Below are positions 10,987 to 42,736 of a stretch of 53,673 nt of DNA, in pieces. This DNA comes from Escherichia phage vB_EcoM_SA91KD. Position numbers and translations under genes: made by a program. The DNA lies in sequence record NC_079183, one strand, 5' to 3'. The notes under the pieces are model-generated. The model was not told the DNA's origin and did no database searches. It saw nothing but the letters and a program-made list of their open reading frames with translations. Positions within the stretch are counted from its first letter, which is position 1, and each line of letters starts with the position of its first letter.

Positions 10987-11277
10987 ATGGAGCATCCGAT
11001 GAATTACGAAGATATCCCAAGAGAGTTGAATGCACTAGAGGCAAGGACCAGACGTGCAGAATCTGTTCTCCACCAGCACCTGTCACTTAATGTAAGTGAT
11101 GAAAAAAGGATGCGGTATACTTTGGAACTTGACGAAGTGGTTTATACTGTCAGCTACAACGAGAAGGCCGCTATTCTAAGTGCGCTTGTCAAAAGCGGAG
11201 AGGAGCGAATCAATCAGCTTAAAATTCTGGACACAGAATTGAAAGGTACTTGGGAGAAACTCAATGCAAAACGATAA
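10987..11277 (+). CDS. Hypothetical protein (92-96 aa)
   Basis: Likely ATG near 10999 after ggagcatccg RBS. Confidence 0.5.
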   Translation: MEHPMNYEDIPRELNALEARTRRAESVLHQHLSLNVSDEKRMRYTLELDEVVYTVSYNEKAAILSALVKSGEERINQLKILDTELKGTWEKLNAKR

Positions 11278-11812
11278 CATCGCTAAAGCAGTAGAACAGC
11301 TAAAGTCCTGGCGTAGAGATGAAACCTTACTGGTTCGTTTCTACACAGGCGAAACTAATTCTGAATTTGTAGATGCGTGGATTGATGGCCTATCTTGGCG
11401 TCACTATGATTTCGACATGCGAGATTATTTGCATGAAGAATACGGCATTGAATATCCAGAAGACGGCACATATGACGTAATTGAATCAAACGAAGAAGAT
11501 GTTACCGAAGTTTGTTTTGTTGACGGACTGTTCAGCATTCGTAAGTATGATAAGTTCAATGAGCTGCTTGTTGACACCGATTTGGATGTAATTCTTGCAG
11601 CATTCCGTAGTGGTGATATTGATATTTTCACTGTGGATGACTTGAACGACAAGGTTATTGCCCGATGTGATTCAATTGCGGAATATTTCCAACAATATGA
11701 TGGCATAGAAGTTCCAGACCACCTTCGTCCATATATTGATTGGGATGCAGTTGTAAGAGATTACGGAAGTGATTACACTTTCTCCGAAGGAATACTATTC
11801 TCAAATGCGTGA
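11264..11812 (+). CDS. Highly acidic protein, ArdA-like antirestriction (DNA-mimic) candidate, 182 aa
   Basis: About a quarter Asp/Glu; C-terminal EVPDHLRPYIDWDAVVRDYGSDYTFSEGILF resembles the conserved ArdA C-terminus as I recall it. Confidence 0.5.
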   Translation: MQNDNIAKAVEQLKSWRRDETLLVRFYTGETNSEFVDAWIDGLSWRHYDFDMRDYLHEEYGIEYPEDGTYDVIESNEEDVTEVCFVDGLFSIRKYDKFNELLVDTDLDVILAAFRSGDIDIFTVDDLNDKVIARCDSIAEYFQQYDGIEVPDHLRPYIDWDAVVRDYGSDYTFSEGILFSNA

Positions 11813-12044
11813 TTTAAATATTGCTGAACTTGAGGCTGGATTGATTGTTCACCACCAGACTCGAAACACTTTCTATCGTATTCTTGGACCCACAAAGATT
11901 AAAACTCACTGCGGAAGTTGGGTGGATGGGTTTGCTTACCAAGAGGTGAAGAAGTACGGGGACCATACTTTCTTAAGCATTGATTCTTCTACTATCTACA
12001 CACGACCGAAAGAGCTATTTGACTCGGATTGGAAAACACTGTAG
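11769..12044 (+). CDS. Hypothetical protein (79-91 aa; start GTG 11769 or ATG 11805)
   Basis: ORF overlapping the end of the acidic gene. Confidence 0.4.
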   Translation: MITLSPKEYYSQMRDLNIAELEAGLIVHHQTRNTFYRILGPTKIKTHCGSWVDGFAYQEVKKYGDHTFLSIDSSTIYTRPKELFDSDWKTL

Positions 12045-12110
12045 TTCCAGGCGGGTTTCTTCGAAGTGCCAAGCGGGTTTTGTACTCGCATTGGCCTTCT
12101 GCTTTAGTCT

Positions 12111-12130
12111 GAAACATTAGTGGGATTTGA
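12111..12130 (+). promoter_or_regulatory. Promoter-like box variant (gaaACATTAGTgGGATtTGA)
   Basis: First of three tandem copies in a non-coding kilobase. Confidence 0.4.
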
Positions 12131-12254
12131 TTCTGACCACTTAGGGAAGAAAGGCATTATACACTTATCGCCAAATGGGTGTCAAGCACTTTCTTCATTT
12201 ATTTTAATTTATTCTTATTATTCTCTTTGTTTGGAATATTGGAATAATTCTGAA

Positions 12255-12271
12255 ACATTAGTTGGAATTGA
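12255..12271 (+). promoter_or_regulatory. Promoter-like box (tctgaaACATTAGTTGGAaTTGA)
   Basis: Second tandem copy; shares the tctgaaac prefix with the 12111 and 14552 copies. Confidence 0.4.
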
Positions 12272-12391
12272 ATTAGTGTAATTCTGTCTGTACTCTTTTC
12301 CATTAGCAATTGTAGAGGGAGTCCACTGCAATAAGCGCAGCCTCAAACAACCAAGTCTGGACAACTTGGGAAGAGAGTGCAGCACAAAATT

Positions 12392-12408
12392 ACATTAGTT
12401 GGAGTTGA
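12392..12408 (+). promoter_or_regulatory. Promoter-like box (tACATTAGTTGGAgTTGA)
   Basis: Third tandem copy. Confidence 0.4.
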
Positions 12409-12690
12409 AGAAACAACATCAGATAATAACTTTGTAACTCGGTAGACCGTTGCGGCCGCATCGTGCGAGAATGTTCGACTCATTCTACAAAGTTATTTTC
12501 GATGGAATGTTTCCATCATATACATTTATCTTTTAACATAGGCCAAAGGGCCGGAATACTTATTCGCAGAAAAGCTATTCACTTGTTATAGGCGATGTAT
12601 TGGGATGAATTGGAACTAAATAAGCAAGCTGTTAGGGCTGAATAATTAGAGGGTTATGCCTCATGCTTATGTTAGTCATTCGAAAATAGG

Positions 12691-13024
12691 TTTGTGCCAC
12701 AAGCCGCTGGTGCTCTGAGGGAGTCGGACAAACAGGGCTTAGAGTGGCATAATCCGCACAAAACCGCGCCACCAGCTATGCCAAAGCGGGTGGTTTGGGT
12801 GAATGTATTGGGAAGGGTTGCAAAGCCTCTGTGGCCTCCGCAGCTTGCCAGGCTGCTATGCAGATATGATGCGTAGGTCGCACCCTAACGGGAGTAACCC
12901 TTCGCCAATGCAGTTATCCAGAATTGACACAAACGGTAGGCAGCGGCCCGATTTTCGGCCTTCCTGCGCTACTCTGTGGCCTGTTCCTGGGCCAAAAGAT
13001 GAGAAGAGAAGTCACAAACACTGA
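12691..13024 (+). ncRNA. GC-rich non-coding island; candidate structured RNA or small inserted element
   Basis: Visibly GC-richer than flanks; track ORFs here translate to Pro/Arg/Trp-rich nonsense; internal repeat ctctgtggcct twice; flanked by imperfect direct repeats (attcgaaaatagg / aatcgaaaattgg). Confidence 0.3.
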
Positions 13025-13045
13025 ATCGAAAATTGGAGAGTTCCT

Positions 13046-13255
13046 ATGGTTCAAAAATATGGCGTAATTAATCACGAAAACTTTCAGTTTAAGGGATACA
13101 CAATTGAAGAATTGTTAGAACTTATTGAAGGCTGGGAGATGAATGCGGAAGCAATAGGCAGTGACCTTGGTGATATGACTGGTGACTTAGCTATTGGCCC
13201 CAAAATTATGCGCGACTTGATTGCCAAAATTAAGGAGTTGCAAAATGGTTCGTAA
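13046..13255 (+). CDS. Hypothetical protein (69 aa)
   Basis: ggagag RBS then ATG. Confidence 0.55.
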   Translation: MVQKYGVINHENFQFKGYTIEELLELIEGWEMNAEAIGSDLGDMTGDLAIGPKIMRDLIAKIKELQNGS

Positions 13256-13565
13256 GCATTCTGCTAAAGTTTTGACGTTAAGAAATGTACTAATGTTTCC
13301 GTCAAGTGGGGAAGGAGAGGAAGAAACAATCCACTTCGTTCTCGTTGGTGGGCGTTGGTATTACAACGGGACCAATAACTTCACCGTAGGAATTTCGGAG
13401 AAAGACGGGTTCTGGAAGCACACTTTCAAAGACATACTCGAAAGCAGTGCTAAATACACCCTTACAGAAATTAAGAAATATTTCTACTACGGCCCAAACA
13501 AGTCCATGCAAATCGCAACCCGCGAATGGACAACAAACCAACCAGTTTACGGAGTTCCATTTTGA
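13245..13565 (+). CDS. Hypothetical protein (about 106 aa)
   Basis: ATG 7 nt after aaggag RBS; track ORF starts at an upstream alternative (13221). Confidence 0.55.
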   Translation: MVRKHSAKVLTLRNVLMFPSSGEGEEETIHFVLVGGRWYYNGTNNFTVGISEKDGFWKHTFKDILESSAKYTLTEIKKYFYYGPNKSMQIATREWTTNQPVYGVPF

Positions 13566-13852
13566 ACTTACAAGACAAATCTAAAGAAGAGTTGATTGAG
13601 ATTATCCAGAAAGAGCACGAACTCGCTGGCATCACAATTAACTTTGAACTCCAGGCAATGCAAGCTGTTGCTTTGGGTCATGGTCTAATGGCTACACTCA
13701 TTCATGCCAAGAATGTGTTAGGCGTTGACAACGAAAAATACCAAATTCTGGAGAAAGCTGCGCAAGAGCGGATTTCGCAGTGCTTGGTGACATTAGTTGA
13801 TTTGGGAATCGACGCAGAAACTGCGAACAAACGTATCCTACAAGGCCACTAA
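13526..13852 (+). CDS. Hypothetical protein (96-108 aa; start ATG 13526 or TTG 13562)
   Basis: Track ORF; a promoter-like box (gACATTAGTTGAttTGgg, 13788-13805) lies inside its 3' end. Confidence 0.45.
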   Translation: MDNKPTSLRSSILNLQDKSKEELIEIIQKEHELAGITINFELQAMQAVALGHGLMATLIHAKNVLGVDNEKYQILEKAAQERISQCLVTLVDLGIDAETANKRILQGH

Positions 13853-13853
13853 A

Positions 13854-14528
13854 ATGTCTTATCATGATGATGACAAAGAGATTGCACTATCAACGTGTAA
13901 GCAATGGCTCAATGATAATGATGCCGTCTATCTTGCCAAGGAAGATGTTATCATTATGTGGGTCCATTTTAATCCAGAATCGAAGCGCGGTGAGTGGCAA
14001 CGCTACAAGATGAAAGAGGCTTGTCGCATAATTAAAGCCACACGCGCTGGCTTCTCTGCTATGAAATACATCAAGCCAGAGATGCTGATGCTTGCTGCAC
14101 AGGAAGAAGAACGTGCATATAAGCAAGCTGTTAAATCTCGTTCAACTGTTCCTCCAGAGTTCTTTAATTTGGAGCGCGCTGGACACTTCAACAATTTAGA
14201 AATGTTGACACTGTGCCTGTTGCAAGAATTAGTTGGAAGAGGACAAAACATTGAAGCTGTTTGTCTTGGAGAACTCATGAAAGAGTTGTTCTCGGCAAAG
14301 GGCTTTGCTGTGCCAAACCGGACTTTACGCTGGAAATTGTTGCGAGCAGTCGCGCAAGAAGCTGGTGTAGTTGTTCGTGACAGAACAAACCGATTCACTG
14401 TAACTGGAGTTGGGCGTTTTGTAGCAATCCAGATTGAGGGTTATGACGAATCAATCATCACTGAACTCACTGTCGCTGAGACAAAGGATTTAGTAAACAA
14501 AACACTAGAACGATTCAATAGATATTGA
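13854..14528 (+). CDS. Hypothetical protein (224 aa)
   Basis: ATG 2 nt after the upstream stop (track ORF starts at TTG 13797); no recognisable motif. Confidence 0.55.
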   Translation: MSYHDDDKEIALSTCKQWLNDNDAVYLAKEDVIIMWVHFNPESKRGEWQRYKMKEACRIIKATRAGFSAMKYIKPEMLMLAAQEEERAYKQAVKSRSTVPPEFFNLERAGHFNNLEMLTLCLLQELVGRGQNIEAVCLGELMKELFSAKGFAVPNRTLRWKLLRAVAQEAGVVVRDRTNRFTVTGVGRFVAIQIEGYDESIITELTVAETKDLVNKTLERFNRY

Positions 14529-15888: not shown

Positions 15889-15895
15889 ATTATTT

Positions 15896-15982
15896 GGACG
15901 AGTAGCTCAGAAGGTCTGCTCCAGAGCTGGTAGAGCAATCTGTTCGACAGATGTGTCGTTGGTTCGAATCCAACCTCGTCCA
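15896..15982 (+). tRNA. tRNA-like element with atypical internal structure (possible pseudo-tRNA or non-canonical tRNA)
   Basis: Canonical 7-bp acceptor stem (GGACGAG / CTCGTCC) and T-arm (GTTGG-TTCGAAT-CCAAC) with discriminator A; the 55 nt between them cannot be folded by eye into standard D and anticodon arms. Anticodon not assignable. Confidence 0.35.
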
Positions 15983-16015
15983 CCCACTTTAATAATTCGC
16001 AATACTGGAGTCCTT

Positions 16016-39010: not shown

Positions 39011-42000
39011 ATGAAGACAATGGCTAATCAAAAAGATTTAATGAAGTTGAGCGTTAATGAGTTAATTGCATTAGGCTCTCAAAGCGGTCTGACTTTCCAT
39101 GCTGGTATGAAGAAGTCGCACATGGTTCAACAACTTAGTGCGAGCGCTGCTTCGGGATGGCTGGATACAAATGCAGAATTAATGGGTGGGTCGTTCGAAG
39201 ATGACAGTTTAATTACTGAATCTTTGGGTGACTCTTCCATGATTTCAGACGCTGCCCACATTGCACAAGTGCTTTCAAGTGCTGGCTACACAGAAGCATT
39301 TCATGCAGCAATGAATGGCCCATCACACCATGTAGAAGCTGTTCACGCATACATGGAAAGGCTTGGCGTTAGCACAGATGATGTGTGGATGCACATGCCA
39401 AAGCCAAATCCGAACTTACCGCAAGGTAGCTTCAACATGCTTAATGCCTATATGCGAGATACTTTGCAAGGGCATCAAGATATTATGCCAGAAATCCCAG
39501 GTCACTATTCTGGTGATATTATGGCAGAATACTCCACCAACCGTGGAAACATTGCTGACTCCTACAACTACATGGCTCACATGTATGTTGACCGTGAGCA
39601 ATACAGCAATCATGAACAATACGCAAGAGACATTAGTCGAGTTGCCAAACGTCTGGAACGAGAGTTACCCTCAGCCTTTAAGGAAGTTGGGTATACATCC
39701 GCATCTAATGTAGGAAATAAATCGGCCCCACATATTTCTTACATGGATGCACTACCTCAAATTGGTTCTCCTTCAATTGTTTCTGGCATTGCACATCCTC
39801 GTGCACCACTTAACGCATCTGGACTTCCTCTTGGTTCTTATGGTTCTGGCATAAATCCAGAATACTCCCTCACCGCATCACTAACTGGTGGCACAGGTTG
39901 GAGCGAGCCAAGCAAGGCTTTGTATTCTTCTATTAGTGAAGCTGTTAAATCTGCTGCCAAAGTTTATTCTGGCTCCAAAGGGATGCTGAATACTCGTCAT
40001 GAAGTATCTGACCGTGACATGATTATGGACAGCGCAACTCGCTATACAGATTTGGAAGAAGCCAGAAGCGGATACGAAAACCTCCGTTCTGAACTTGCAG
40101 ATGAGCCAGCTTATTCTGCATCAAGTGTTCGAGCTATCCTCGAAAACACTTATGATAAAATGGATGCCGAACCTGTTCGCATTCCAAAGATGAAGGGAGC
40201 TTCACAGCGAGTCGATAAAGATTCACTGTCAACATCTACAGATTTTACAGCACAACTTGGAGAGGCCACCAATTGGAACTCTGCAAGAATGCGTCGTGAG
40301 GAACTTGCGATTGCAAACATGGATAGTGCTGGATTCCGTGATGTATCAGACTATGGTACAGGACGTTCCGAGTCCCCCGTCCGATTCCATGACTTAGAAC
40401 AGGGTAGCCAAGAGTGGCTAGACTTCCGTAAAAATTATGACATAACTGGCTCAACTGTTGGAACCTTCTTAGGAAACAACCCATACACCCGACCTTGGGC
40501 TGGGATGATTGATAAGATTGGCCTATCTCGTAGTAAAGAGCACAGCGATTTCACCAAGAAGATGTTCGCTGATGGTCACAGGACGGAAGAAGAAGCACGC
40601 GCCCGTGTTAGCAAGGAATTTGGATTTGATATCAAACAAACTGGCGCTATAACAAATGACAACTATCCCGCCTTCATGTATTCTCCTGATGGTCTTATTG
40701 GGGATGATGCCATTTGGGAGCACAAGAATCCGCAAAGGGCTGGTAAGTTTGCTGACCTTCTTAAAGGCGACCATCCAGACTACATGGACCAAATTCAATT
40801 TGGTATGCACGTTTCTGGCCGTTCTCGTGCTTTGTTCTCACAAACCATCAACGACGAAACACGTTCACAGTGGATTGAGAAGGACGAAGGATGGTACGAA
40901 AGAAACCGAAATCGCCTTGATTCTGTGCTTGGCCGTCTTGATGCTGGGCGAGAGTTTGTTAGAAACAATGCTGGATTAGAACGAGAAGAGCTGATTGCTG
41001 GTGCAAGAAGTGCAATGACTGGTGATGGAATCTGGAAAGATATTCGTCAAAGGTCTACTCGTGGCTATTCTGCTGCTGCTGGCACTCCAGAAGACCCGTT
41101 TATTGGTTCACGTTCTTCGTACAATCCAGGGGCATCTTACTCTGACTACAAGCCAAACTTTGTAATGCACGAGCAAAACTTTCCGGCAACCACTGGAAAT
41201 GGTGACACCGGAAATGACTCGATGGCATTGTCTGTTAAGAAAGGTATTCTTGCTGCCCAGGAAGAAAACAGGCAGAAAGGTATCGGTGCAGATGCAGACT
41301 TTGATGGCAAAGCCGACTCAATGGGTTGGAACCGTGAAAGATTTGATGCTGCCAATGGCGGTGGATATTCTGGCGGTGGCGGTGGTCGTGGCGGCAACTT
41401 CACAAGTGGTGGCAACTACTATGATGACTACGGTCGCATGGGTGGTTCGTTAGCTGCTGGCATTGCTGGTGGCAGTATTGGTTCAGCAACCAACGGAGTT
41501 ATGCAAGCATTGATGGCAACTCCTGCGGGACGTATGGCTGCTGTAGGCATTGGTGCTATTCAGATTGGCAATGAAGCTGCTGAATACATGAATGACTTTA
41601 TCGGCAACTCGCTTGATGCTGGTGTGATAAATCCTAATGAATACTCTTCTATGTCGCAAGGCTTGGAGATGTTAGGACTCAACTCACAACAAGCGGCACG
41701 TCTGAATCAAACCACACATAGTGCCTATAACACCATGCTTAACGGCGACCCTAGCGCCGCTGTGAACATCGTTCGCGGCAGTAGGGGATTGCTCACCATA
41801 GGTGATATTCGTGCGACAGGCGGCGACCCTGTGGCCCTGGCTCGCATCATGCAGGAAAGGGGCAAGGAACGTGGCTGGAGCCAGGCCCGTATCGCAGGTG
41901 CTGCCGAAATGGCTGGCCTGAATGGGATGGCGCGAGCCTACGACCGCACGGAATACAGCCATGAGCAAGCTGGCTCGGTGGTAGAAGCAGGTAGAAACTC

Positions 42001-42736
42001 CGACTTTGCCGAAGGTATGGCCCAATCGGAAATGTTGCAGGGAAGCCGCGCACGGGTGCTGCCAAGCTACAACGTGCCACAAAGTGTCTTATCTAATGGT
42101 GCTTCTGTATTTGAGGCTGGCAGTGATGCACTTGATGGTGTACGCACTGGATTCAACAGGACACGAGAGTTTGCTGGAAGTGTTTACGACTTTATTGCTC
42201 AGGAAGAATCTGGTGGTCGTGAATACAACAAAGATGGTTCTCGTGTAACAAGTCGCACTGGTGCTCGTGGAGTAATGCAGATTCTCCCTTCGACTGCCCG
42301 TGACCCAGGATTTGGAATCAGGCCGTCTGATGGAACTCCAGAAGATGATGCACGAGTTGGTCGTGAATACTATGACGCAATGTACAAGCGTTATGGCGAC
42401 CACGAAAAGGCAATGGCTGCTTACACAGATGGTCCTGGCACTGTTGACAAAGCTGTTGATAAGAATGGATTGGATTGGCTGACTGCTGTTCCTGTACAAG
42501 CACAGAATCGCGTCAAAGCATTCCGTGAATGGTCCAAGTCTTCTCAATCTTTGGAAGAAGGTGCTACAGGGTTTACTCGTAATGGAATGTCATACGGCCA
42601 AACCCAAACTGTTGTTAATGTTAAGATTGATGCTAAGGTCAACAACCAGACTGCTTCTGCTACAGTTGCAATTCCTGGTGGTCAGACTGTGACTCAACAA
42701 ATGAACATGAATAACGGTGCGCAACAAAGAAGGTAA
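39011..42736 (+). CDS. Tape-measure-position multidomain virion protein with embedded YqaJ-like nuclease domain and C-terminal lytic transglycosylase domain (1241 aa)
   Basis: Central YqaJ motifs: W..FRKNYDITGSTVGTFLGNNPYTRPW, FMYSPDGLIGDDAIWEHK (D...E.K), YMDQIQFGMHVSG. Gly-rich segment GGGYSGGGGGRGGNF. C-terminal SLT-like EESGGREYN...GARGVMQILPSTA. Confidence 0.7.
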   Translation: MKTMANQKDLMKLSVNELIALGSQSGLTFHAGMKKSHMVQQLSASAASGWLDTNAELMGGSFEDDSLITESLGDSSMISDAAHIAQVLSSAGYTEAFHAAMNGPSHHVEAVHAYMERLGVSTDDVWMHMPKPNPNLPQGSFNMLNAYMRDTLQGHQDIMPEIPGHYSGDIMAEYSTNRGNIADSYNYMAHMYVDREQYSNHEQYARDISRVAKRLERELPSAFKEVGYTSASNVGNKSAPHISYMDALPQIGSPSIVSGIAHPRAPLNASGLPLGSYGSGINPEYSLTASLTGGTGWSEPSKALYSSISEAVKSAAKVYSGSKGMLNTRHEVSDRDMIMDSATRYTDLEEARSGYENLRSELADEPAYSASSVRAILENTYDKMDAEPVRIPKMKGASQRVDKDSLSTSTDFTAQLGEATNWNSARMRREELAIANMDSAGFRDVSDYGTGRSESPVRFHDLEQGSQEWLDFRKNYDITGSTVGTFLGNNPYTRPWAGMIDKIGLSRSKEHSDFTKKMFADGHRTEEEARARVSKEFGFDIKQTGAITNDNYPAFMYSPDGLIGDDAIWEHKNPQRAGKFADLLKGDHPDYMDQIQFGMHVSGRSRALFSQTINDETRSQWIEKDEGWYERNRNRLDSVLGRLDAGREFVRNNAGLEREELIAGARSAMTGDGIWKDIRQRSTRGYSAAAGTPEDPFIGSRSSYNPGASYSDYKPNFVMHEQNFPATTGNGDTGNDSMALSVKKGILAAQEENRQKGIGADADFDGKADSMGWNRERFDAANGGGYSGGGGGRGGNFTSGGNYYDDYGRMGGSLAAGIAGGSIGSATNGVMQALMATPAGRMAAVGIGAIQIGNEAAEYMNDFIGNSLDAGVINPNEYSSMSQGLEMLGLNSQQAARLNQTTHSAYNTMLNGDPSAAVNIVRGSRGLLTIGDIRATGGDPVALARIMQERGKERGWSQARIAGAAEMAGLNGMARAYDRTEYSHEQAGSVVEAGRNSDFAEGMAQSEMLQGSRARVLPSYNVPQSVLSNGASVFEAGSDALDGVRTGFNRTREFAGSVYDFIAQEESGGREYNKDGSRVTSRTGARGVMQILPSTARDPGFGIRPSDGTPEDDARVGREYYDAMYKRYGDHEKAMAAYTDGPGTVDKAVDKNGLDWLTAVPVQAQNRVKAFREWSKSSQSLEEGATGFTRNGMSYGQTQTVVNVKIDAKVNNQTASATVAIPGGQTVTQQMNMNNGAQQRR

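What the first reader, a model, noticed from the sequence alone, without database searches (positions are those of the whole stretch)
12111..13037. Three tandem promoter-like boxes feeding a GC-rich non-coding island flanked by short direct repeats
Three copies of the recurring box lie at about 12111, 12255 and 12392 in a gene-free kilobase. Downstream is a roughly 330-bp island (12691-13024) that is visibly GC-richer than anything around it and translates only to junk. It contains an internal repeat (ctctgtggcct twice) and is bracketed by attcgaaaatagg / aatcgaaaattgg. This looks like a highly transcribed structured RNA or a small element inserted by target-site duplication.
Basis: seen in the sequence. 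Interest (0 to 1): 0.55.

Follow-up and report, generated by a model that had tools for sequence, protein, structure and literature searches.

The report
Conserved structured RNA in Chaseviridae phages
The GC-rich island is not junk or a jumping element: it is the core of a large folded non-coding RNA, absent from the RNA family database, that this family of E. coli-type phages keeps downstream of three copies of its own promoter; its function is unknown.

Summary
The window is a whole Chaseviridae (Carltongylesvirus-like) coliphage genome that encodes a T7-type RNA polymerase. The three boxes are copies of an 11-member motif found only on the + strand and only between genes. phiEcoM-GJ1's GenBank record already calls this motif a "putative phage promoter".

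The island (12676-13024) is non-coding. Every + frame has stops in all 18 homologues, there are 1-nt indels, and variable sites show no codon periodicity. It folds into four domains (D1-D4). Pairing holds in 98.7% of cells within the genus. Domain D4 shows strong compensatory change across eight lineages (covariation 0.84 against 0.35 in shuffles). Folding is strand-specific (z -4.5 on +, -0.7 on -). The core is 96% identical across relatives whose flanking genes are 73-94% identical.

No Rfam family matches in any lineage, and I found no paper that describes it. It sits inside a roughly 640-nt structured leader that runs from the third box to the next gene's ribosome-binding site.

The mobile-element reading is not supported: there are no copies elsewhere and the position is fixed. 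I file it as a new phage RNA family of unknown function. My best guess is an RNA-level leader or processing module; a stable trans-acting RNA and a replication-primer RNA are the live rivals.

The parts
12043..12080 (+). Two 16-nt direct repeats, AGTTCCAGGCGGGTTT and AGTGCCAAGCGGGTTT, just after the stop codon of the upstream gene. Possibly a protein-binding site (inference).
   Evidence: family D3. GTTCCAAGC is also doubled in 4HA13, Faunus and PM1. 12045-12110 is 95% identical across 15 relatives.
12108..12130 (+). Promoter-like box P1 (TCTGAAACATTAGTGGGATTTGA).
   Evidence: It is 99% identical across relatives. The equivalent site in phiEcoM-GJ1 is annotated 'putative phage promoter 4'.
12156..12185 (-). 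Perfect sigma-70 consensus promoter on the minus strand (TTGACA-18 nt-TATAAT). It fires leftward and converges on P1.
   Evidence: 12 of 12 matches. Both hexamers and the 18-nt spacing are invariant in window, 4HA13, Faunus, phiA050, PM1 and PP101, while the spacer sequence varies.
12186..12248 (.). AT-rich tract (GC about 0.3) with GGAATAAT/ATTATTC-type repeats, lying between P1 and P2.
   Evidence: The same tract (GC 0.23-0.25) is present in 4HA13, Faunus and phiA050. 12131-12248 is 97% identical across relatives.
12249..12271 (+). Promoter-like box P2.
   Evidence: The equivalent site in GJ1 is annotated 'putative phage promoter 5'.
12386..12408 (+). Promoter-like box P3, the one directly followed by the structured leader.
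12409..12517 (+). S0, the 5' leader domain. GAAACAACAUC pairs with GAUGGAAUGUUUC and encloses a long stem whose sequence is entirely different, yet still paired, in other lineages.
   Evidence: the same fold appears in window, GJ1, 4HA13, Faunus, phiA050, L162 and MLP1.
12620..12670 (+). D0, a conserved hairpin (AUAAGCA/UGCUUAU) carrying the motif GGGCUGAAUAAUUAGAG.
   Evidence: 92% identity. The motif is present in Faunus, phiA050, PM1, Papaline, L143 and L162.
12678..12690 (+). 5' flanking repeat ATTCGAAAATAGG, at the D0/D1 junction.
12689..12755 (+). D1, an irregular hairpin of 26 bp with a GRRAG pentaloop and a 3-nt bulge on its 3' side.
   Evidence: The same architecture folds independently in phiA050, Faunus, 4HA13 and GJ1, with most stem positions changed.
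12764..12790 (+). D2, a small hairpin with a conserved GCCAA loop motif.
   Evidence: pair 92/113: AU 10, CG 3, not paired 5. The GCCAA hairpin is also present in phiA050, 4HA13 and L162.
12795..12921 (+). D3, a long hairpin domain with a 26-bp lower stem, the invariant mini-hairpin CCCUAACGGG and a hypervariable tip.
   Evidence: helix 6 is 100% paired and has 3 compensatory pairs. It folds as a long hairpin in six lineages.
12834..12880 (+). Hypervariable cassette at the tip of D3. At least four unrelated sequence versions exist among close relatives, all 46-47 nt long.
   Evidence: No antisense match to E. coli, and none longer than 10 nt to the phage's own genome.
12925..13016 (+). D4: the universal CAAACG, hairpin H1 (12935-12973), hairpin H2 (12974-12998), a purine-rich linker and the universal GUCAC(A).
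   Evidence: 14 sequences from 8 lineages; covariation 0.843 against 0.353 in shuffles, 0 of 500. Covariance model R1 recovers the held-out Faunus and L143 copies at the syntenic site.
13024..13036 (+). 3' flanking repeat AATCGAAAATTGG, overlapping the Shine-Dalgarno GGAG (13035-13038) of the gene that starts at 13046.

Best explanation
The island (12676-13024) is the four-domain core (D1-D4) of a non-coding, highly structured + strand RNA that is specific to Chaseviridae phages and matches no Rfam family.

It forms the 3' part of a roughly 640-nt structured leader (S0, D0, then D1-D4). The leader begins right after the last of three tandem copies of the phage RNA-polymerase promoter motif. 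It runs, with no predicted terminator, into the ribosome-binding site of the next gene.

Shown: the island is non-coding, it is conserved, its structure covaries, folding is strand-specific, and its position is syntenic across genera.

Inferred: it is transcribed from P1-P3 by the phage T7-like polymerase. It acts at the RNA level, in cis, as a processing, stability or translation-control module at the head of the downstream gene cluster. The long duplexes in S0, D1 and D3 would serve as RNase III-type processing or protective structures, as at T7 intergenic R-sites. The D3-D4 core would present the adjacent ribosome-binding site.
For: Context. The window encodes a T7-type RNA polymerase (PF00940). 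Its relatives are Carltongylesvirus phages of the Chaseviridae.

Promoters. There are 11 + strand motif copies against 0.8 expected, they lie between genes, and GJ1's record annotates them as putative phage promoters.

Non-coding. Every + frame has 2-10 stops in all 18 homologues, there are 1-nt indels, and variable sites fall 21/30/20 across the three codon phases. The two longest ORFs have no PHROG family.

Structure. The island folds with z -4.46 on + and -0.67 on -. The whole leader gives z -6.09 on + and -2.40 on -. Within the genus, 100 pairs are 98.7% paired, with 22 double-change cells against 7.0 in shuffles (0 of 500), and slid controls are only 34-45% paired. G-U pairs make up 178 cells, so pairing would fall to 88.8% on the other strand.

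Across genera. D4 is 89.6% paired against 63.9% in shuffles, with 52 double-change cells against 21 and a covariation score of 0.843 against 0.353. D1, D3 and S0 refold to the same shapes from different sequences. Model R1 finds the held-out Faunus (E 0.004) and L143 (E 0.007) copies at the syntenic site, with one weak hit (E 0.7) and no significant one elsewhere in the 443 kb of DNA searched.

Selection. The core is 95.6% identical across relatives whose flanking genes are 73-94% identical.

Cis link. In all eight lineages D4 ends within about 30 nt of a UUGGAG ribosome-binding site. No + strand terminator is predicted between P1 and the gene.
Against: There are no expression data, so the transcript ends, abundance and processing are all unknown.

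The gene that follows the RNA differs between lineages, so this is not a gene-specific leader.

Four domains with invariant loops and joints are far more elaborate than known RNase III sites or 5' stabilisers.

D1 is missing in PM1 and L143, and Loessnervirus (Papaline) lacks the island altogether. The element is therefore not essential to every family member.

No conserved sequence that could mask the ribosome-binding site was found across genera.
Confidence: 0.45

Rival explanations
1. A stable trans-acting non-coding RNA. The leader would be cut, for example by RNase III or RNase E at S0, D1 or the 3' tail, to release an abundant 330-400-nt folded RNA. That RNA would work on its own or with a protein, for instance in host takeover or counter-defence. 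The D3-tip and H1 cassettes would act as swappable peripheral or specificity modules.
For: It is a GC-rich island in an AT-rich genome, like other stable RNAs. It has multi-domain architecture with invariant loops and joints, including a GRRAG pentaloop, a GCCAA loop, CAAACG and GUCAC. Three tandem promoters sit upstream. It is independent of which gene follows. Homing-endonuclease-like ORFs sit in or beside it in GJ1 and Papaline. The hypervariable cassettes keep a fixed length of 46-47 nt.
Against: There is no terminator or recognisable 3'-end signal. The cassettes have no antisense match to E. coli, and none longer than 10 nt to the phage genome. No partner protein was identified. The D3-tip and H1 cassette types assort independently among the phages.
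Confidence: 0.25
2. Part of the phage replication origin. As at the T7 primary origin (promoters phi1.1A and phi1.1B followed by an AT-rich tract), transcripts from P1-P3 would prime DNA synthesis. The folded GC-rich RNA would act like ColE1 RNA II, with its structure controlling formation of an RNA-DNA hybrid.
For: Tandem phage promoters are combined with an AT-rich repeat tract, direct repeats and a conserved convergent host promoter at 12043-12271. That control region is 95-99% identical across relatives. GC skew is positive over the 5' half of the island. The analogy to T7 and ColE1 rests on established knowledge, not on a test made here.
Against: The island lies 450-900 nt downstream of the AT-rich tract. 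Cumulative GC skew shows no inflection here. Conservation of G-U-compatible RNA helices and of adjacency to the ribosome-binding site is not required of an origin. In PM1 and L143 a small ORF lies between the promoter box and D3-D4.
Confidence: 0.12
3. A small mobile insertion or degenerate self-splicing intron bounded by a target-site duplication (TCGAAAAT).
For: The only two exact copies of the 11-mer in the genome bracket the island. Papaline has D0 followed directly by a ribosome-binding site and a gene, which resembles an empty site. An HNH-like ORF replaces D2-D3 in GJ1.
Against: There is no copy in 5,426 E. coli genomes. In the phage collection it occurs only at the syntenic site of Chaseviridae, and IMG/VR adds only members of the same family. 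It encodes no transposase or integrase and has no terminal inverted repeats. No Intron_gpI or other intron or ribozyme hit appears at permissive thresholds in any lineage. The flanks are non-coding, so there are no exons to rejoin. The repeats are degenerate or absent in other genera, which still carry the RNA.
Confidence: 0.04
4. A protein-coding gene obscured by sequencing errors or unusual codon usage.
For: Some depositors annotated short ORFs here, for example in PYps3T, Bp10 and Ecp_YSF.
Against: The annotated ORFs differ in frame and length between genomes. Every + frame has stops in all 18 independent genomes, indels are single nucleotides, and there is no third-position bias. There are no PHROG hits.
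Confidence: 0.02

Closest known systems
T7-group single-subunit RNA polymerase promoters (the boxes)
   Same: A recurring motif of about 20 nt, on one strand only and between genes, in a phage that encodes a PF00940 polymerase. Copies occur in tandem ahead of a gene cluster.
   Different: The sequence (AAACATTAGTTGGA...) is unrelated to the T7, T3 or SP6 consensus. The motif has never been tested experimentally: the ICTV 2022 profile says Chaseviridae promoters are not yet identified (PMC12842549), although GenBank EF460875 marks them as putative.
T7 intergenic RNase III sites and 5' or 3' stabilising hairpins
   Same: Long irregular duplexes between genes, just upstream of the next ribosome-binding site, in transcripts made by a T7-like polymerase.
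   Different: T7 R-sites are single hairpins of about 60-100 nt (from general knowledge). This element has four to six domains over 330-640 nt, with invariant loops. No cleavage has been shown.
T7 primary replication origin (phi1.1A and phi1.1B plus an AT-rich tract) and ColE1 RNA II
   Same: Tandem phage promoters next to an AT-rich tract, with a long folded RNA downstream.
   Different: The island is hundreds of nucleotides beyond the AT-rich tract and abuts a translated gene. No initiation data exist.
Large 'ornate' RNAs associated with phages (GOLLD, ROOL)
   Same: Large, GC-rich, multi-domain RNAs with covariation support and unknown function, encoded by phages or prophages (PMC12286853).
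   Different: There is no sequence or model match in Rfam. This RNA is smaller (about 330-400 nt), occurs in Gram-negative lytic phages, and is co-linear with a downstream gene. Oligomerisation was not tested.
Group I introns carrying homing-endonuclease ORFs
   Same: A structured RNA of similar size with variable peripheral stems, and an HNH-like ORF inside it in GJ1.
   Different: There is no covariance-model hit, no interrupted gene, and no conserved splice-site features.

Membership tests
Any Rfam 15 family | Covariance-model match at the gathering score, or at a permissive E-value | tested here: not met
   The whole window at gathering threshold gives only tRNA-Ser. 12000-13200 at E up to 10 gives only chance snoRNA-like hits. 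GJ1 and 4HA13, and L162, Faunus, phiA050, PM1 and L172, give nothing at the RNA locus.
Phage single-subunit RNA polymerase promoter | A conserved motif repeated on the coding strand, in intergenic positions upstream of genes | tested here: met
   11 + strand matches against 0.82 expected. The sites lie between ORFs. Each relative has 2-3 boxes at the same place.
Phage single-subunit RNA polymerase promoter | The phage encodes the cognate polymerase | tested here: met
   ORF 749-2602 matches PF00940 at E 8e-18.
Phage single-subunit RNA polymerase promoter | Transcription start demonstrated in vitro or in vivo | not testable with these tools
   No expression data are available. The ICTV profile states that the promoters are not yet identified.
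Structured non-coding RNA (generic) | Not protein-coding | tested here: met
   Stops in all + frames of all 18 homologues, 1-nt indels and no codon periodicity.
Structured non-coding RNA (generic) | Base pairs maintained by compensatory change beyond the controls | tested here: met
   (0 of 500 shuffles reach the observed values; slid controls are far lower). Independent refolding is shown.
Group I intron | Match to the Intron_gpI model and a conserved P3-P8 core | tested here: not met
   No hit. A candidate P3 pairing (GUUUG/CAAAC) is broken in ST32-type sequences.
Group I intron | Interrupts a gene whose exons rejoin into a functional product | tested here: not met
   Both flanks are non-coding.
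Insertion element with target-site duplication | Copies at non-homologous sites or in other genomes | tested here: not met
   it is found only at the syntenic Chaseviridae locus.
Insertion element with target-site duplication | Relatives with an empty site carrying a single copy of the repeat | tested here: inconclusive
   Papaline lacks the island but has an HNH-like ORF there. GJ1 and 4HA13 keep only the 3' copy.
T7-type primary origin | Phage promoter or promoters adjacent to an AT-rich tract | tested here: met
   P1, the AT-rich tract at 12186-12248 and P2. This concerns the upstream region, not the island.
T7-type primary origin | Replication initiates there | not testable with these tools
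   GC skew is uninformative.
RNase III processing site (T7 R-site type) | An intergenic duplex of at least about 20 bp, upstream of a gene | tested here: met
   The lower stems of S0, D1 and D3.
RNase III processing site (T7 R-site type) | Cleavage by RNase III | not testable with these tools
   This needs 5'/3'-end mapping in wild-type and rnc-mutant hosts.
GOLLD/ROOL-type ornate RNAs | Homology to the family models | tested here: not met
   No Rfam hits at the RNA locus.

The most novel reading that the evidence does not exclude
The island would be a free-standing, abundant phage ribonucleoprotein or ribozyme-like RNA, released from the leader. Its invariant core would do one job, and its fixed-length but sequence-unrelated cassettes (the D3 tip and hairpin H1) would be exchanged between co-infecting phages as specificity or evasion modules. 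That would make it a new class of phage host-takeover or counter-defence RNA in genetically tractable coliphages.
Probability: 0.15. Interest if true: 0.85.

Novelty: new variant of a known kind. Interest (0 to 1): 0.55.

Why it matters
Most depositors left this locus blank or filled it with inconsistent short ORFs. The evidence here points instead to a large RNA under stronger constraint than its neighbouring genes, conserved across at least five named genera and three further lineages, and absent from Rfam.

Large structured RNAs of unknown function are rare, and most are hard to study. This one sits in lytic phages that grow on E. coli K-12 (for example phage flopper on MG1655), so deletion, complementation and structure probing are straightforward.

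The same kilobase also offers candidate answers to two open points for Chaseviridae: the sequence of the phage polymerase promoter, and the location of the replication origin or the early-to-middle switch.

Tried and rejected
- **Rfam scans.** I scanned the window at gathering and permissive thresholds, and seven relatives at permissive thresholds. No family matched at the RNA locus.
- **RNase P idea.** I recalled a resemblance between GAGGGAGUC / GGGCUUA and RNase P regions CR-I and CR-V. I dropped it: there is no model hit, the motif is simply a hairpin stem with a GRRAG loop, and the proposed P4-like pairing fails in phiA050.
- **Group I intron idea.** I recalled R/S-like strings and considered a P3 pairing GUUUG/CAAAC. 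I dropped it: P3 is broken in ST32-type sequences, there is no omega-G across genera, and no exons exist.
- **Antisense or guide idea for the hypervariable cassette.** There is no match in E. coli genomes at E up to 10, and none longer than 10 nt in the phage genome.
- **Pairing between the flanking repeats and AUUUUCG.** AUUUUCG occurs in hairpin H1 and in S0 of most phages in the genus, but is absent from PYps16N and from other genera. It is therefore not a required interaction.
- **Terminal UUCGA/UCGAA helix.** It is invariant apart from one broken pair in TH29, so nothing supports it (helix 1).
- **Collection scans.** A scan of IMG/VR with the 16-mer CAGAATTGRMACAAAC gave mostly chance hits.
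- **GC skew as an origin marker.** It rises monotonically and is uninformative.
- **The phiEcoM-GJ1 genome paper** (PMC2223254) is not held in the library.

Full report
**What the window is.** The 53.7-kb window is a complete phage genome with every long ORF on the + strand. ORF 749-2602 is a T7-type single-subunit RNA polymerase (PF00940). The region 11000-14500 is 85-95% identical to Carltongylesvirus members of the Chaseviridae, such as ST32, Bp7, Mangalitsa and the Yersinia PYps phages. Weaker matches reach Erwinia, Pectobacterium, Proteus and Aeromonas phages.

**Checking the observation.** All the stated features are present.
- The box ACATTAGTKGGAKTTGA occurs 11 times, all on the + strand, against 0.82 expected by chance. 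Three copies lie at 12114, 12255 and 12392.
- The other copies lie between ORFs: upstream of the polymerase gene, after it, after the DNA polymerase gene, and so on.
- phiEcoM-GJ1's GenBank record annotates the equivalent sites as "putative phage promoter 4/5/7". The ICTV 2022 profile states that the family's promoters have not been identified experimentally.
- The island reaches GC 0.55-0.57 against a genome mean of 0.44. It is the second GC-richest 300-nt stretch of the genome.
- The 11-mer CTCTGTGGCCT occurs only at 12827 and 12972.
- The two flanking repeats are the only exact matches to TCGAAAATWGG in the genome.

**The island is not a gene.** I aligned the window with 17 independently sequenced homologues.
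- Every + frame contains 2-10 stop codons in every sequence.
- Indels are single nucleotides.
- Variable core sites fall 21/30/20 across the three codon phases.
- The short ORFs that some depositors annotated differ in frame and length.
- The two longest ORFs in the window match no PHROG family.

**The island is a folded RNA on the + strand.**
- The island folds with z = -4.46 on the + strand and -0.67 on the - strand.
- RNAalifold on the 18 sequences gives four domains:
  - D1 (12689-12755), a 26-bp irregular hairpin with a pentaloop.
  - D2 (12764-12790), a small hairpin.
  - D3 (12795-12921), a long hairpin with a 26-bp lower stem, an invariant CCCUAACGGG mini-hairpin and a hypervariable tip.
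  - D4 (12925-13016), two hairpins framed by CAAACG and GUCAC.
- Of 1,799 pair cells, 98.7% form standard pairs, against 97.2 ± 0.2% in shuffles.
- 22 cells carry changes on both sides, against 7.0 ± 1.9 in shuffles (0 of 500 shuffles reach this).
- Sliding the 3' partners drops pairing to 34-45%.
- One-sided changes are almost all C:G to U:G or A:U to G:U. G-U pairs account for 178 cells, so the complementary strand would be only 88.8% paired.
- The core, without the variable cassettes, is 95.6% identical across 15 relatives. The upstream genes are 82-85% identical and the downstream genes 73-94%.

**The RNA is family-wide.** The same non-coding kilobase, in the same place after the antirestriction gene and a small gene, exists in:
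- 4HA13 (Sabourvirus), Faunus (Faunusvirus), and PM1 and PP101 (Suwonvirus);
- Aeromonas phage phiA050;
- two IMG/VR contigs (L143, L162) and one metagenome contig (L172).

The domains persist although their sequences have changed:
- D1 refolds into the same 25-28-bp hairpin, with a GRRAG pentaloop and a 3-nt bulge on the 3' side, in window, phiA050, Faunus, 4HA13 and GJ1. Most stem positions have changed.
- D3 is a long hairpin in six lineages.
- A 14-sequence alignment of D4 from eight lineages is 89.6% paired against 63.9% in shuffles. It has 52 double-change cells against 21.3, and a covariation score of 0.843 against 0.353 (0 of 500). Slid controls score 0.14-0.31.
- A covariance model built without Faunus, L143, L172 or PM1 finds Faunus (E 0.004) and L143 (E 0.007) at the syntenic position and L172 weakly (E 0.23). 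It misses PM1 and PP101. Apart from the window and GJ1 copies, its only other hit in the 443 kb searched is a weak one (E 0.7) in an unrelated viral locus.
- L162 combines a phiA050-type D1 with a Faunus-type D3, which ties the variants into one family.

The family is modular. PM1 and L143 lack D1 and have a promoter box plus a small ORF there instead. GJ1 has an HNH-like ORF, mislabelled SbcC, in place of D2-D3. Loessnervirus (Papaline) lacks the island altogether.

No Rfam family matches in any lineage. None of the literature searches or family papers I could reach mentions this RNA.

**The RNA is longer than the island.** Directly after box P3, the conserved GAAACAACAUC pairs with GAUGGAAUGUUUC. 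Together they enclose a long stem whose sequence is completely replaced, yet still paired, in other lineages. This domain is S0 (12409-12517). A conserved hairpin, D0 (12620-12670), follows. The whole stretch 12409-13045 folds with z = -6.09 on the + strand and -2.40 on the - strand. No terminator-like site is predicted on the + strand before the next gene. In every lineage D4 ends within about 30 nt of a UUGGAG ribosome-binding site. The gene that follows is not the same in all lineages, however.

**The flanking repeats and the mobile-element idea.** The repeats are real. The 3' copy is invariant in the genus, and the 5' copy is invariant apart from one G-to-T change in TH29. The evidence nevertheless goes against a mobile element:
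- The island has no copy in 5,426 E. coli genomes.
- In the phage collection, IMG/VR and the metagenome hits it occurs only at this locus of this family.
- It carries no mobility gene.
- Other genera keep the RNA without a clear repeat.

The 3' copy overlaps the sequence just upstream of the ribosome-binding site. The 5' copy is the D0/D1 junction. A 7-nt complement, AUUUUCG, occurs in D4 hairpin H1 in 16 of the 18 aligned phages and in S0 of about half of them, but is missing in PYps16N. Any interaction is therefore optional.

**Mechanism.**

*Shown:* a conserved, non-coding, + strand-specific, multi-domain RNA structure, placed downstream of tandem promoter motifs and abutting a ribosome-binding site.

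*Inferred:*
- It is transcribed by the phage polymerase.
- It acts at the RNA level.
- My preferred reading (0.45) is a cis-acting leader or processing module at the head of the gene cluster. It would be analogous to, but far more elaborate than, the T7 RNase III sites and stabilising hairpins.
- A released, stable trans-acting RNA (0.25) fits the GC-richness, the invariant loops, the tandem promoters and the swappable fixed-length cassettes. It lacks a 3'-end signal, though.
- An origin or primer role (0.12) is suggested by the upstream control region, which has a T7-origin-like layout and is 95-99% conserved. That region comprises direct repeats, P1, a conserved convergent minus-strand sigma-70 promoter, an AT-rich repeat tract and P2. 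The island itself lies well beyond that tract, and the skew data say nothing either way.
- The intron or insertion reading (0.04) and the coding reading (0.02) are effectively excluded.

**Verdict.** The boxes are an already-annotated, though untested, promoter motif. The RNA matches no Rfam family and was not found in the accessible literature. Its function is unknown, and it is experimentally tractable.

Noticed in passing
window 12156-12185 (minus strand): A perfect sigma-70 consensus promoter (TTGACA-18 nt-TATAAT) points leftward and converges on box P1. Both hexamers and the spacing are invariant in five lineages, while the spacer sequence varies freely. This looks like a real host-polymerase promoter. 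Its product (an antisense RNA, a leftward primer or a 41-aa ORF) is unknown.
   Followed up: partly
window 12043-12080: Two 16-nt direct repeats (AGTKCCARGCGGGTTT) lie 22 nt apart, right after the upstream gene's stop codon. GTTCCAAGC is also doubled in other genera. They are a possible protein-binding site.
   Followed up: partly
window 12045-12271: Box P1, the AT-rich GGAATAAT-repeat tract (GC about 0.3) and box P2 resemble the T7 primary origin layout. This non-coding stretch is 95-99% identical across relatives, more than the flanking genes (82-85%).
   Followed up: partly
window 12272-12385: The segment between P2 and P3 is an indel hotspot (51% gaps, 28% identity). Relatives carry different small ORFs here, including a zinc-ribbon-like 60-aa ORF in Faunus and PM1.
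   Followed up: no
L002 (phiEcoM-GJ1) 1559-1960: The ORF annotated 'putative exonuclease SbcC' matches PHROG endonuclease and HNH families instead. It sits inside the RNA locus and replaces D2-D3. Papaline has an ORF with an HNH-like CxxC...HH motif (by eye; no Pfam hit) at the same spot.
   Followed up: partly
window 12834-12880 and 12938-12972: Two cassettes in the RNA (the D3 tip and D4 hairpin H1) exist in several unrelated sequence versions. The versions assort independently among close relatives. The four D3-tip versions all have the same length, 46-47 nt.
   Followed up: partly
L014 (PP952070, 'Staphylococcus phage Pel53'): This record is about 89% identical to the coliphage locus and is classified in the Chaseviridae. 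A Staphylococcus hyicus host is hard to reconcile with that, so the host label may be wrong.
   Followed up: no
window 15895-15986: A tRNA-Ser (anticodon GCU) gene lies about 3 kb downstream of the RNA. L162 also carries a tRNA in the equivalent region.
   Followed up: no
window 13046-13255: The 69-aa gene after the RNA is present in only some relatives (63% gaps). In Bp7, flopper, 4HA13 and phiA050 the RNA is followed directly by the homologue of the window's second gene (13245-13565). The ribosome-binding site and the first codons are retained in both arrangements.
   Followed up: partly
window about 41600-41900: The only stretch GC-richer than the island (GC up to 0.61) lies inside the 1241-aa ORF at 39011-42736.
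   Followed up: no
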